This document shows, piece by piece, positions 209 through 2,890 of a DNA stretch of 64,000 bases. The translations under genes and the position numbers were made by a program. The notes beneath the pieces were generated by a model, which was given only the letters and a program-made list of their open reading frames with translations, ran no database searches and had not been told where the DNA came from. Source of the DNA: a virus (lineage: Duplodnaviria; Heunggongvirae; Uroviricota; Caudoviricetes); the IMG/VR virus record IMGVR_UViG_3300029186_000001; one strand, written 5' to 3'. Within the stretch, counting starts at the first letter, position 1. Each line of letters starts with the position of its first letter.

Positions 209-418
209 ATGGCTTTCATTCCACCAACCATCGACGACGTTAGACATTGCTCTAACGCTTTATCTGTAGACCCCGCCGAAACCGACGCTGCCCGCGCCAT
301 TGCTGAACACTACTCAAAGATATCCAATCAGGAGTACCGCATCACCCAAGACGACCTGGATGATCTCACTGACACAATCGAATATCTCATGGCCACTAAC
401 CAGCCAGACTCACAATAA
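209..418 (+). CDS. Coi-like C1-repressor inactivator (69 aa)
   Basis: 69-aa ORF immediately upstream of and co-oriented with the 283-aa c1-like gene, GAGG RBS; assigned by size and synteny with P1 immC, not by recognised sequence. Confidence 0.5.
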   Translation: MAFIPPTIDDVRHCSNALSVDPAETDAARAIAEHYSKISNQEYRITQDDLDDLTDTIEYLMATNQPDSQ

Positions 419-434
419 ATGCACTAATAAATCT
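418..434 (+). promoter_or_regulatory. C1 operator-like 17-mer AATGCACTAATAAATCT
   Basis: 14/17 match to the P1 C1 operator consensus ATTGCTCTAATAAATTT as I recall it; overlaps the coi stop, upstream of c1. Confidence 0.4.
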
Positions 435-463
435 ATTATTTTCGTTGGATCCTTCTATAATGG

Positions 464-506
464 TGGCCAACAACTCCCAGTGTAATCCGCTGTGAGTTGT
501 TGGCCA
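464..506 (+). promoter_or_regulatory. 13-bp perfect inverted repeat between coi-like and c1-like genes
   Basis: TGGCCAACAACTC at 464-476 pairs with GAGTTGTTGGCCA at 494-506 around a 17-nt loop; no T-tract follows, so not a classical intrinsic terminator. Confidence 0.4.
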
Positions 507-528
507 TGTCAATTCTGGAGGAGGATCA

Positions 529-1380
529 ATGATAAATTATGTCTACGGCGAACAACTGTACCAGGAGTTCGTCAGCTTCAGGGATCTCTTTCTAAAAAAA
601 GCTGTTGCACGCGCCCAACACGTTGATGCCGCCAGCGACGGTCGTCCTGTTCGCCCGGTTGTCGTTCTGCCGTTCAAAGAAACGGACAGCATTCAGGCTG
701 AAATTGATAAATGGACTTTAATGGCGCGGGAACTGGAACAGTACCCAGACCTCAATATCCCAAAGACTATTTTATATCCAGTGCCTAACATCCTTCGCGG
801 TGTGCGTAAGGTTACTACTTATCAGACAGAAGCTGTGAACAGCGTCAACATGACCGCTGGCCGCATTATTCATCTGATTGATAAGGACATTCGCATCCAG
901 AAAAGCGCGGGGATCAATGAGCACAGTGCGAAATACATAGAGAACCTGGAAGCAACAAAAGAGCTAATGAAGCAGTACCCGGAGGATGAAAAATTCCGTA
1001 TGCGTGTACACGGCTTTAGCGAAACAATGCTGCGCGTCCATTACATTTCCAGTAGCCCTAACTACAATGATGGTAAATCAGTTAGTTACCATGTGCCGCT
1101 GTGTGGTGTGTTTATCTGCGATGAAACTCTCCGTGATGGAATCATCATCAACGGTGAATTCGAGAAAGCAAAATTTAGCCTTTATGACTCTATAGAACCG
1201 ATCATCTGCGACCGCTGGCCGCAGGCAAAAATATATCGCCTGGCAGATATTGAAAATGTAAAAAAACAAATTGCCATCACTCGCGAAGAGAAAAAGGTCA
1301 AATCAGCCGCATCAGTTACGCGCAGCCGTAAAACTAAGAAGGGGCAGCCAGTAAACAGCAACCCCGAAAGCGCGCAATAG
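529..1380 (+). CDS. c1: C1-like immunity repressor (283 aa)
   Basis: 283-aa ORF convergent with pacB, preceded by the coi-like ORF; many C1-operator-like 17-mers occur elsewhere in the window; size and synteny match P1 c1. Confidence 0.65.
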   Translation: MINYVYGEQLYQEFVSFRDLFLKKAVARAQHVDAASDGRPVRPVVVLPFKETDSIQAEIDKWTLMARELEQYPDLNIPKTILYPVPNILRGVRKVTTYQTEAVNSVNMTAGRIIHLIDKDIRIQKSAGINEHSAKYIENLEATKELMKQYPEDEKFRMRVHGFSETMLRVHYISSSPNYNDGKSVSYHVPLCGVFICDETLRDGIIINGEFEKAKFSLYDSIEPIICDRWPQAKIYRLADIENVKKQIAITREEKKVKSAASVTRSRKTKKGQPVNSNPESAQ

Positions 1381-1405
1381 TTTTCCATCCGGCATGGTCA
1401 AATTG

Positions 1406-2890
1406 TTATTCATTAAGCCATGCCAGAGCTTCATCAACCTGCGCTTCGTCTTCGACGCTAAGCACTTCATCTTGGGGAACATAGTTCGCCAACATAGCGA
1501 AACAATATGTATCCCAATGGTCCGGTGAGTGCAGGTTGAGTTTTTTCTTCATATCTTCCTTTGACATCACCTTCCATTGACCTGCGGAATTTATCCCTAC
1601 CGGTATCTTTGATGCTTCCTCTATAGTCGCAGCCCCCTTATCAAGCCTCATACGCCCTGATTTTACAGCTTCTGCCGCCTGAATATTCGCGAAAGCGCGC
1701 ATATCGAAATAAAGGCTTTTATCTTCACGGCTGTGCATCTTTTTACCCCAGCGGATACGCTGGACGGTAATGCCATAGCGTTCGTACATTAGATCAGCCG
1801 TCGATTTCCCCAAGCCATCGCCATCAATAGCTATGGTTATGTTCGGGAACCGTTCTGGGTTACATTCTGCGAAAATCTTGGCGGCTAACTGCGTTTCTGT
1901 AACGTCTGTGTATTCCAGCATACGATAGTTGATTACACGGCGTTTATTTCGCTGGCCGGACACCATCATGATATTAATAACGGACTTATCTCGTCCTGTG
2001 CCACCAGCAACGTCAACACATGCAACCCAGCCCCATCCTTTGGCAATCTTGACCTTTCGCCGCGTCGCCCGCTCAACCTCATCACGACCAAGAAGAAAGC
2101 CATCTTGAGATTTGGGAAATTCACCACGTACTTTGATCATGTACATGGGGTTATCACGACCGCCATACTCCGCAAGTTTTGCTCGTATAAATTTTGCATC
2201 TACAAGCGGAGATTCTTCACTATTCAGTATTATCGCAGTAAACAATCCATCAGGATTTCCCGGGCGAATAGCTAGTCTGTGGTGTGAATCGTAGAAATAG
2301 CCTGAAGGTCGCGTAGGCTGGGAAAGAAGCAGAATACGGTTATCCTTACCGGTCAGCGCACCTGTTATCACACTGAATGCTTTATCACTCACACCCGACG
2401 CTTCGTCGATGATATACAAGAGATGATCGGCGTGTTCACCAGCCAACGCCTCCTCATTTCCGGGGCGACAGGACTTTATCAATATTGTCCAAACACCCTT
2501 GCCAGTCACCTCAAAAAAAGACGTTTCTGTAAGAATGAAATACTTCGACAACCACGGGAATCTGCTAACAGCAGTAGCCCAATTGCTCTTTATGTATTTG
2601 AAAATACCATCAAGGACTTGCTGTCTTTTGTTAGCGACCAGAATGACGCGAGCGCCAGGGAAAAACATGATGAAGAGTATTGCAATGATACTCGTCATAT
2701 CCGATTTACCAGTACCATGGCCGGAGGTCACACTTGTCCAACTGCCGTCCTGCTGCGTGGACTCAATGATCTCATCCTGCTGCCAGGTTGGTGTCTTCCC
2801 AAACAACACATCAGCGGCCGCAATCCAGTCATAACGATATAGCGCCACCAGCTCGCGCCAACGTGGGTCCGTTACGCAACTTCTGGCCAT
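1406..2890 (-). CDS. pacB: Terminase large subunit PacB (494 aa)
   Basis: Walker A-like SGHGTGKS and Walker B-like LLYIIDEAS motifs; start overlaps stop of upstream pacA; size matches P1 PacB. Confidence 0.85.

What the first reader, a model, noticed from the sequence alone, without database searches (positions are those of the whole stretch)
464..506. Perfect 13-bp inverted repeat between the coi-like and c1-like genes
The hairpin lies in the short spacer before the c1 RBS and lacks a T-tract, so it is more likely an mRNA structural element or a protein-binding palindrome than a terminator. It could tune repressor translation relative to its inactivator.
Basis: seen in the sequence. Interest (0 to 1): 0.28.

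Follow-up and report, generated by a model that had tools for sequence, protein, structure and literature searches.

The report
Conserved RNA hairpin leading P1 c1
The inverted repeat between coi and c1 is real: it is an RNA stem-loop, kept across P1-like phages by compensatory mutations, that begins right at the c1 promoter, so it most likely caps and protects the 5' end of the repressor mRNA rather than acting as a terminator or a protein-binding site.

Summary
The window is a P1/P7-type phage. The perfect 13-bp inverted repeat (464-476/494-506) is confirmed. It is the core of a 19-bp stem-loop (463-507, about -33 kcal/mol, z = -5.5). Chance expectation is 0.025 such repeats per 64 kb.

Eight P1-clade lineages (C1 at least 71% identical) carry a hairpin of different sequence but the same architecture at the same place:
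- 92% of cells pair, against 33-49% in slid controls.
- 13 of 19 pairs changed on both sides.
- G.U wobbles pair only in the + strand RNA.

So it is a selected RNA structure, not a DNA palindrome. It has no conserved T-tract, no C1-operator match and no Rfam family, and the Shine-Dalgarno sequence stays unpaired.

A Pc1 transcript would therefore begin with 0-1 unpaired nucleotides.

Best reading (inferred, start site not mapped): a 5'-terminal protective stem-loop for c1 mRNA. In five lineages the stem extends upstream of the predicted start, so a longer helix exists only in coi-c1 read-through RNA. That leaves a processing role (for example RNase III) open.

The element is unannotated in the P1 record. 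I rate it a new member of a known kind, of moderate interest.

The parts
209..418 (+). coi (C1 inactivator, 69 aa), the upstream cistron; transcribed only from P1coi
   Evidence: ORF; annotated coi in P1 NC_005856 at the homologous position; promoter usage from PMC8546580
418..445 (.). Bivalent C1 operator Oc1ab (old Op99a/b)
   Evidence: P1 record annotation transferred by window = locus - 190; operator consensus match at 418-434
432..437 (+). Pc1 (old P99a) -35 hexamer
   Evidence: P1 record annotation
456..461 (+). Pc1 -10 hexamer TATAAT, invariant in all eight lineages
   Evidence: P1 record annotation; invariant columns 1-6 of alignments A3 and A4
469..469 (+). Predicted (not mapped) Pc1 transcription start: A469 after C468, the 8th nt after the -10
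   Evidence: Inference from the usual 7-8 nt distance and the pyrimidine(-1)/purine(+1) preference; a start here leaves 0-1 unpaired 5' nt
463..476 (+). 5' arm of the lower stem (14 nt); 463-468 lie upstream of the predicted Pc1 start
   Evidence: Folds; covariation
477..477 (+). 5' side of the 1x1 internal loop (C477 opposite U493); closed to A-U in variant L034
478..482 (+). 5' arm of the upper stem (CAGUG)
   Evidence: pairs 24/36 and 27/33 of A4 change on both sides between alleles A and B
483..487 (+). Apical loop UAAUC (P7 has UAAUU)
488..492 (+). 3' arm of the upper stem (CGCUG)
494..507 (+). 3' arm of the lower stem
508..516 (+). Single-stranded A/U-rich spacer between stem and SD
   Evidence: Unpaired in the folds; identical in A and B carriers
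517..524 (+). Shine-Dalgarno GGAGGAGG of c1
   Evidence: Sequence read; not paired with the hairpin in any lineage
529..1380 (+). c1 repressor gene (283 aa)
   Evidence: 99-100% identity to the C1 proteins of P1, P7 and SJ46

Best explanation
Shown: the repeat encodes an RNA stem-loop on the c1 sense strand that is under selection for pairing rather than sequence. It occupies a fixed slot between the invariant -10 hexamer of promoter Pc1 and an unpaired A/U-rich spacer plus SD.

Inferred: RNA polymerase starting at Pc1 (predicted A469, 7-8 nt after the -10) makes a c1 mRNA whose first nucleotide is already base-paired (0-1 unpaired 5' nt). Its stem-loop is worth -14 to -26 kcal/mol across the lineages.

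Such a flush 5'-terminal helix denies RppH and the 5'-monophosphate sensor of RNase E the single-stranded 5' end they need. It would therefore prolong the life of the weakly transcribed, autoregulated repressor message in the lysogen while leaving the ribosome-binding site open. This is the same logic as the ompA and papA 5' stem-loops.

Transcripts that start upstream at P1coi (imcA-imcB-coi-c1) carry the same element internally. In five of eight lineages it is then 5-6 bp longer, which may add a second, transcript-specific role (see the first rival).
For: Source and anatomy:
- The window is 98.5-99.5% identical to P1, P7, phiW39 and SJ46.
- The P1 record places Oc1ab and Pc1 immediately upstream, with the -10 at window 456-461.

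RNA structure under selection:
- A/B alleles are co-linear: 95.6% of cells pair against 28-50% in slid controls; 5 of 19 pairs changed on both sides against 0-1; 0/500 shuffles reach the covariation score.
- U.G intermediates exist at pair 467/503: C-G, then U.G, then U-A.
- Structural alignment of 16 distinct sequences from 8 lineages: 92.1% paired against 32-49% slid; 13 of 19 pairs with double changes against 3-4.
- G.U/U.G occupies 39 cells in at least 9 pair columns, against 4 A.C/C.A cells, so pairing works on the + strand only.
- Sister lineages K and K2: the hairpin is 90% identical while c1 third codon positions are 61% identical, and all 4 differences form 2 compensatory pairs.
- Population variants of alleles A and B are mostly loop changes, wobble-preserving or pair-improving; the two disruptive ones hit only the outermost pairs 465 and 466.

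Position:
- In all 8 lineages the stem starts 1-4 nt after the -10.
- A start at position 7-8 leaves 0-1 unpaired 5' nt.
- In JK004, Salmonella Newport and L217 types the strong stem begins exactly at nt 7-8.
- The SD is free, 5-11 nt downstream.

Other:
- The hairpin folds as an independent domain with or without the coding context.
- RppH and RNase E both need single-stranded 5' termini, which explains stabilisation by 5' structures (PMC3997798).
- c1 is transcribed from both Pc1 and P1coi (PMC8546580).
Against: - The Pc1 start site is predicted, not mapped here, and the old primary papers could not be read.
- No half-life or expression data exist for this element.
- In lineages A, B, K, K2 and M the helix extends 3-6 bp upstream of the predicted start and is 5-9 kcal/mol more stable than with random 6-mers there. 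A purely Pc1-specific function does not explain this.
- Only about 10% of E. coli mRNAs respond to RppH loss (PMC3997798), so 5' protection need not matter for c1.
- The CM-based alignment leans towards the modelled structure. The co-linear A/B alignment does not have that problem.
Confidence: 0.5

Rival explanations
1. Processing or stability element of the coi-c1 read-through RNA (not exclusive with the best explanation). Only transcripts started at P1coi contain the full helix of about 20 bp with a central 1x1 loop. It would act as an RNase III site or a 3' exonuclease barrier that uncouples coi and c1 mRNA fates, setting the Coi:C1 ratio during infection. Pc1 transcripts carry a helix too short to be cut.
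For: Nucleotides 1-6 after the -10 cannot be in Pc1 RNA, yet they are paired in every lineage (37 paired against a null mean of 21.5, P about 0.001). They add 5-9 kcal/mol in A, B, K, K2 and M. Pairs 465/505, 466/504 and 467/503 covary. Total helix length is a fairly constant 17-20 bp with a conserved central 1x1 loop or bulge, which is the size class of RNase III substrates (my knowledge of T7 R1.1 and lambda sib). c1 is co-transcribed with coi from P1coi. A lambda precedent for promoter-dependent hairpin length is listed in PMC3997798, ref 41.
Against: No cleavage data exist. In the JK004, Salmonella Newport and L217 lineages the outer extension is marginal, at most 2 kcal/mol better than random. 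The only pair-breaking natural variants sit in this outer part (G465T, G466C), suggesting weaker constraint there. No open paper links RNase III to P1 c1.
Confidence: 0.25
2. Translation tuner of c1. The stable helix close to the RBS modulates 30S loading, either as a steric hindrance or as a structural insulator or standby platform that keeps the SD accessible whatever lies upstream.
For: The stem ends only 5-11 nt before the SD in all lineages. The spacer is A/U-rich and unpaired and is identical between A and B carriers. The hairpin folds as an autonomous domain in both transcript contexts.
Against: No pairing between the hairpin and the SD or start codon in any lineage. No conserved anti-SD sequence in the arms, which differ completely between alleles. 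Insulation alone does not explain the strict adjacency to the -10 hexamer.
Confidence: 0.12
3. Transcription terminator, attenuator or pause site that limits read-through from P1coi into c1.
For: It is a strong G+C-containing hairpin directly after the coi cistron. One lineage (L211) has a T-run after the stem, TAGTTTTTT.
Against: It is not called terminator-like. The T-run is absent in 7 of 8 lineages and is lost in the sister lineage L221, which has TAGTAATTC. It would equally terminate Pc1 transcripts, since the inner stem is retained. The current model has c1 expressed from P1coi as well.
Confidence: 0.07
4. DNA palindrome bound by a dimeric protein, or a cruciform affecting Pc1.
For: It is a perfect 13-bp palindrome abutting the -10, a position where a bound protein would repress Pc1.
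Against: Arm sequences are unrelated between lineages with near-identical regulators and hosts. Changes pass through G.U wobbles, which are C.A mismatches on the other strand (39 against 4 cells). The + strand RNA fold is stronger than the - strand fold (-35.3 against -28.0 kcal/mol). There is no C1 operator match.
Confidence: 0.03

Closest known systems
5'-terminal stabilising stem-loops of E. coli mRNAs (ompA hp1, papA; Emory, Bouvet and Belasco 1992, as cited in PMC3997798)
   Same: A strong hairpin within 0-1 nt of the (predicted) 5' end, followed by a single-stranded A/U-rich segment and the RBS. Pairing rather than sequence is conserved.
   Different: The 5' end is not mapped. In five lineages the helix continues upstream of the start. 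The same element is also internal to a longer polycistronic RNA. No half-life data exist.
Lambda sib/tI retroregulation of int (Schmeissner et al. 1984, ref 41 in PMC3997798)
   Same: In both cases two promoters would yield RNAs containing different extents of one hairpin. In lambda only the longer version is an RNase III substrate, which gives promoter-specific gene expression in a lysis-lysogeny circuit.
   Different: Here the difference would lie on the 5' side (promoter inside the helix) rather than the 3' side (terminator read-through), and it would affect the downstream gene. RNase III involvement is purely hypothetical.
Intercistronic RNase III sites of T7 early mRNA (R1.1 type) (my knowledge)
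   Same: A helix of about 20 bp interrupted by a central internal loop, sitting between two cistrons of a phage operon.
   Different: No cleavage evidence. T7 sites have asymmetric internal loops, whereas here it is a 1x1 mismatch that one natural variant closes (L034).
Intrinsic (Rho-independent) terminators
   Same: A stable hairpin after a stop codon.
   Different: No U-tract in 7 of 8 lineages. The position is downstream of, not upstream of, the next promoter.
P1/P7 immI c4 antisense RNA system
   Same: An RNA-level control element in P1 immunity whose stem-loop sequences differ between alleles.
   Different: No complementary partner was found in the window. P1 and P7 share the same hairpin allele apart from one loop base, so it is not a heteroimmunity determinant.

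Membership tests
Intrinsic terminator | G+C-rich stem-loop | tested here: met
   19-bp helix, -33.5 kcal/mol
Intrinsic terminator | U-tract immediately 3' of the stem, conserved in relatives | tested here: not met
   The tail is GUCAAUUCU and is not called by the terminator scan. A T-run occurs in only 1 of 8 lineages and is lost in its sister.
5'-terminal stabilising stem-loop (ompA/papA type) | Stem-loop no more than a few unpaired nt from the transcript's 5' end | tested here: inconclusive
   Met for the predicted start: 0-1 unpaired nt for starts at positions 7-8 after the -10 in all 8 lineages. The Pc1 start itself is not mapped in any source I could read.
5'-terminal stabilising stem-loop (ompA/papA type) | Pairing, not sequence, is what matters (compensatory changes tolerated) | tested here: met
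   Covariation; K versus K2
5'-terminal stabilising stem-loop (ompA/papA type) | Lengthens mRNA half-life in an RNase E/RppH-dependent way | not testable with these tools
   Needs rifampicin chase experiments
RNase III processing site | Roughly two helical turns (about 20 bp) of dsRNA, often with an internal loop | tested here: met
   14 + 5 bp around a 1x1 loop in the read-through RNA; 17-20 bp in the other lineages
RNase III processing site | Specific cleavage by RNase III | not testable with these tools
   No data; no literature link found
C1 operator | Match to the asymmetric 17-bp consensus ATTGCTCTAATAAATTT | tested here: not met
   12 matches in the window with up to 3 mismatches, none within 462-507; the nearest is Oc1a at 418-434
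SD-sequestering translational repressor hairpin | SD or start codon paired within the element | tested here: not met
   The SD lies 5-11 nt 3' of the stem and is unpaired with it in 8 of 8 lineages
Any Rfam family | Score at or above the family gathering threshold | tested here: not met
   The best overlapping hits score 19.2 and 16.8 bits against thresholds of 60 and 58, with E > 3

The most novel reading that the evidence does not exclude
The Pc1 promoter is deliberately embedded in the 5' arm of the hairpin, so one DNA element yields two RNAs. P1coi read-through RNA would carry a full helix of about 20 bp that is cleaved (for example by RNase III), inactivating or uncoupling c1 on the lytic-phase coi-c1 message. 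Pc1 RNA would carry a truncated, uncleavable helix flush with its 5' end that stabilises c1 mRNA in the lysogen. This would be a 5'-side mirror image of lambda sib retroregulation. It would set the Coi:C1 ratio, a parameter central to the P1 lysis-lysogeny decision.
Probability: 0.18. Interest if true: 0.65.

Novelty: new member of a known kind. Interest (0 to 1): 0.4.

Why it matters
P1 immC is a textbook lysis-lysogeny switch that is currently modelled entirely through proteins (C1, Coi, Lxc), operators and two promoters. A selected RNA structure at the exact 5' end of the repressor message, also internal to the coi-c1 message, adds a post-transcriptional layer. That layer could set C1 level and the Coi:C1 ratio, the quantity that recent single-cell work identifies as decisive.

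It is directly testable with stem-disrupting and compensatory mutants. Natural allele swaps (A versus B) provide ready-made controls. P1-type phage-plasmids are also common carriers of resistance genes in Enterobacteriaceae: 717 plasmids in PLSDB carry this c1.

Tried and rejected
- Rfam scan at permissive E-value: only sub-threshold noise.
- Terminator and promoter scan: no terminator call at the hairpin and no antisense promoter.
- C1-operator similarity of the arms: none.
- Trans-pairing partner or second copy of the hairpin in the window, as an antisense-RNA idea: nothing better than E = 0.45.
- Alternative pairing of the 3' arm with the near-copy of the 5' arm in c1 codons 7-10 (547-557): not chosen in folds and not conserved in allele B.
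- Anti-SD pairing of CUCCCAG (474-480) with the SD: not conserved in other alleles (considered by eye).
- General hypervariability or diversifying selection on the hairpin: rejected. Only the A/B pair shows it, and K/K2 show the opposite.
- MAFFT alignment of all lineages: too poorly registered for the divergent rows, so RNAalifold recovered only an 8-bp core. I replaced it with a covariance-model alignment.
- Homologous element in the distant C1 clade (53-59% identity; L213-L216): absent. That clade has a different operator and a short leader whose weak hairpin pairs with the SD.
- Reading the primary P1 literature (Lobocka 2004, Osborne 1989, Velleman 1987): not held. Full-text searches found no mention of this hairpin. 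I therefore cannot exclude that a 1987-1990 sequence paper remarked on the inverted repeat.

Full report
**1. What the window is and where the feature sits**

Bases 1-1400 are 98.5-99.5% identical to phages P1, P7, phiW39 and SJ46. I transferred the rich annotation of the P1 reference record (window coordinate = locus coordinate - 190). This gives:
- coi at 209-418.
- The bivalent C1 operator Oc1ab (old Op99a/b) at 418-445.
- Promoter Pc1 (old P99a), with -35 at 432-437 and -10 TATAAT at 456-461.
- c1 at 529-1380.
- pacB convergent from 1406.

None of the record's 535 features covers 462-507. The current published model is that c1 is transcribed from both P1coi (upstream of imcA-imcB-coi) and Pc1, while coi is transcribed only from P1coi (PMC8546580).

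**2. The observation**

The 13-bp perfect inverted repeat (464-476/494-506) is real. On the + strand RNA it is the core of a larger stem-loop:
- G463.U507 plus 13 Watson-Crick pairs.
- A 1x1 internal loop (C477/U493).
- A 5-bp upper stem (478-482/488-492, with a U481.G489 wobble).
- The loop UAAUC (483-487).

Energy is -33.5 kcal/mol, z = -5.5, and 0 of 200 shuffles fold as well. The - strand fold is weaker, at -28.0 against -35.3 kcal/mol for the same 91 nt. Perfect hairpin repeats of this size are expected 0.025 times per 64 kb. The window has two, and this is one of the four longest local inverted repeats. No T-tract follows and the terminator scan does not call it. Rfam has nothing above noise.

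**3. Comparative evidence: a selected RNA structure**

I collected c1 loci from three kinds of source:
- Genomes, IMG/VR, phage and plasmid records.
- Contigs encoding diverged C1 homologues.

Among about 200 P1-type loci there are two common alleles:
- Allele A is the window's allele, shared by P1 and P7.
- Allele B is ATAGGTCAGTAATGACCGGTTTTCTCAGCCGGGCGTTATTGACCA.

The two alleles have identical length (45 nt) and identical flanks: operator, TATAAT and TGTCAATTCTGGAGGAGGATCAATG.

On the co-linear A/B alignment, the named structure gives:
- 95.6% of cells paired, against 28-50% when partners are slid.
- 5 of 19 pairs changed on both sides, against 0-1 in slid controls.
- 0 of 500 shuffles reaching the covariation score.

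Pair 467/503 shows the full path C-G (A), U.G (variants L010 and L079), U-A (B).

Six further lineages have C1 71-79% identical. They are the JK004/Klebsiella type, the Salmonella Newport plasmid, and the L217, L211, L221 and L219 types. Each has an unrelated-looking sequence that folds into the same architecture in the same slot.

A covariance-model alignment of 16 distinct sequences gives:
- 92.1% of cells paired, against 32-49% slid.
- 13 of 19 pairs with double changes, against 3-4 slid.

This alignment leans towards the model's structure. The A/B result does not.

Wobble pairs that work only in the + strand RNA outnumber the reverse kind by 39 to 4 cells.

Sister lineages L211 and L221 differ at four hairpin positions, which form exactly two compensatory pairs. 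Their hairpin is 90% identical while c1 third codon positions are 61% identical. That is purifying selection on structure.

Natural single-nucleotide variants are loop changes, wobble-preserving transitions, a change that closes the internal loop, or changes next to it. The two pair-breaking variants hit only the outermost pairs, 465 and 466.

A DNA palindrome for a protein would conserve sequence, not complementarity, and the arms do not resemble the C1 operator. I conclude with high confidence (about 0.9) that this is a functional RNA stem-loop on the c1 sense strand.

**4. Anatomy that constrains the mechanism**

(a) *Position relative to the promoter.* In all eight lineages the stem starts 1-4 nt after the invariant -10 hexamer. 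E. coli RNA polymerase normally starts 7-8 nt after the -10, preferring a purine after a pyrimidine. In the window that is A469 after C468. A Pc1 transcript starting at position 7-8 has 0-1 unpaired 5' nucleotides in every lineage and keeps a hairpin of -14 to -26 kcal/mol. In the JK004, Salmonella Newport and L217 lineages the strong G+C-rich stem begins exactly at nt 7-8.

(b) *The ribosome-binding site.* The SD is never paired with the element. It lies 5-11 nt downstream, after an A/U-rich single-stranded spacer.

(c) *No conserved U-tract.* Only L211 has one, and its sister L221 has lost it.

(d) *Autonomy.* The hairpin folds as an autonomous domain whether or not upstream or coding sequence is included.

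(e) *The outer stem.* In lineages A, B, L211, L221 and L219 the helix continues 3-6 bp upstream of the predicted start. The six nucleotides after the -10 make the fold 5-9 kcal/mol more stable than random 6-mers do. In the other three lineages the gain is at most 2 kcal/mol. Summed over lineages, 37 paired nucleotides are observed against a null mean of 21.5 (P about 0.001).

**5. Mechanism**

The feature common to all lineages is a strong helix flush with the predicted 5' end of the Pc1 transcript and an open RBS. That is the defining arrangement of 5'-terminal stabilising stem-loops. RppH and the 5' sensor of RNase E both need a single-stranded 5' terminus, which explains the long-known stabilising effect of 5' secondary structure (PMC3997798 and its references 92-95).

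I therefore propose, as inference, that the element protects the repressor message made from the weak, autoregulated Pc1 promoter. The steps not shown are the start site, any effect on half-life, and the nuclease dependence. Confidence is about 0.5.

The outer stem in five lineages cannot be present in Pc1 RNA. It argues that the full helix of about 20 bp with its central mismatch also matters in coi-c1 read-through RNA. An RNase III site or exonuclease barrier that uncouples the two cistrons is the obvious candidate (confidence about 0.25, not exclusive). It would resemble lambda sib retroregulation, where promoter choice determines how much of a hairpin is present.

Translation tuning (0.12), termination or attenuation (0.07) and a DNA-level protein site (0.03) are less likely, for the reasons given under the rival explanations.

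**6. Comparison with known systems and novelty**

The element works like an ompA/papA-type 5' stem-loop. Membership cannot be declared until the 5' end and a stability effect are shown. It fails the tests for an intrinsic terminator, a C1 operator, an SD-sequestering hairpin and every Rfam family.

It is absent from the more distant C1 clade (53-59% identity). That clade has a palindromic operator and a short leader with a weak SD-pairing hairpin.

I found no description of it in the annotated P1 or P7 records or in the searchable literature. The 1987-2004 primary papers were not readable, so an early passing mention of the repeat cannot be excluded.

I class it as a new member of a known kind: an unannotated, well-supported cis-acting RNA element in a classic switch.

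**7. An unexplained detail**

Between A and B carriers the 45-nt hairpin segment is 42% divergent. By contrast coi is 2.9% divergent, c1 is 2.5% (third positions 94% identical), and the SD spacer and the 208 nt upstream are identical. This sharp hot spot is not a general property, since K versus K2 show the opposite. It is most simply explained by short-patch recombination from an unsampled lineage, because P1-type genomes are mosaic: divergence jumps again just after the c1 stop. The coincidence of the patch with the hairpin borders remains unexplained. No trans-pairing partner was found in the window.

**8. Verdict**

It is an RNA structural element, not a terminator and not a protein palindrome, and probably not a translational occluder.
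- The key missed fact is that the c1 promoter abuts the stem.
- Interest is moderate, at 0.4.

Noticed in passing
window 462-506 versus L003, L005, L036 and L069: The hairpin segment is 42% divergent between allele A and B carriers, while coi and c1 differ by 2.5-3% and the flanking spacer by 0%. This is a sharp-edged divergence hot spot exactly on the hairpin. The cause is unknown: either short-patch recombination or accelerated compensated evolution.
   Followed up: partly
window 1380-1468: Just after the c1 stop (the 3' end of pacB on the - strand) divergence between A and B carriers jumps to roughly 40% of positions. This looks like a mosaic recombination boundary.
   Followed up: no
window 547-557: c1 codons 7-10 (GGCGAACAACT) are a 10/11 copy of the hairpin 5' arm (465-475) and so are complementary to the 3' arm. 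The pairing is not used in predicted folds and is not conserved in allele B, so it is probably chance.
   Followed up: yes
window 517-527 with about 583-594: When the early c1 coding region is included, the MFE fold pairs the SD region (GGAGGAGGAUC) with GAUCUCUUUC in c1 codons about 19-22. The helix is G.U-rich and appears in both transcript contexts and in allele B. Its ensemble frequency is low and I did not test it for conservation.
   Followed up: no
window 40931-40971: This is the only other perfect hairpin repeat of at least 13 bp in the window (AAATTTCAAGGTGAAATCG / CGATTTCACCTTGGATTTT, 3-nt loop, ending in a T-run). It looks like an intrinsic terminator.
   Followed up: no
window 30726-30765: Two overlapping, oppositely oriented C1 operator matches form a palindrome (30732-30748 + with 2 mismatches; 30743-30759 - with 0 mismatches). 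This is a bivalent operator like Oc1ab.
   Followed up: no
window-wide (418, 2178, 4692, 14547, 16639, 16688, 20312, 30732, 30743, 34265, 49412, 51469): There are 12 matches to the C1 operator consensus with up to 3 mismatches, against 0.32 expected. This is the dispersed C1 regulon of a P1-type phage.
   Followed up: no
window 53697-53743 and 38174-38232: Two further long local inverted repeats: 21-nt arms at 86% with a 5-nt loop, and 16-nt arms at 94% with a 27-nt loop. Their function was not examined.
   Followed up: no
L213-L216 (C1 homologues, 53-59% identity): A distant C1 clade has a different, palindromic operator-like sequence (CTCTAAAAAAATCAATTTTTTAGAG), a divergent HTH_3 gene upstream, and a short c1 leader whose weak hairpin pairs with the SD (GCUC...GGAGC). 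This is a different regulatory layout from P1.
   Followed up: partly
L003 and L006 (JAFAFU010000035.1, JAEXLD010000103.1): Short contigs labelled 'MAG: Bacillota bacterium' carry a 99%-identical P1-type c1 locus. They are most likely mis-binned enterobacterial phage-plasmid DNA.
   Followed up: no
L221-L223 (protein P0009): The gene caller extended this C1 homologue to 304 aa by starting at the ATG that directly follows the Pc1 -10 hexamer. The extension runs through the hairpin, and the conserved start (MV.Y motif) lies 21 codons downstream. This is an annotation artefact.
   Followed up: yes
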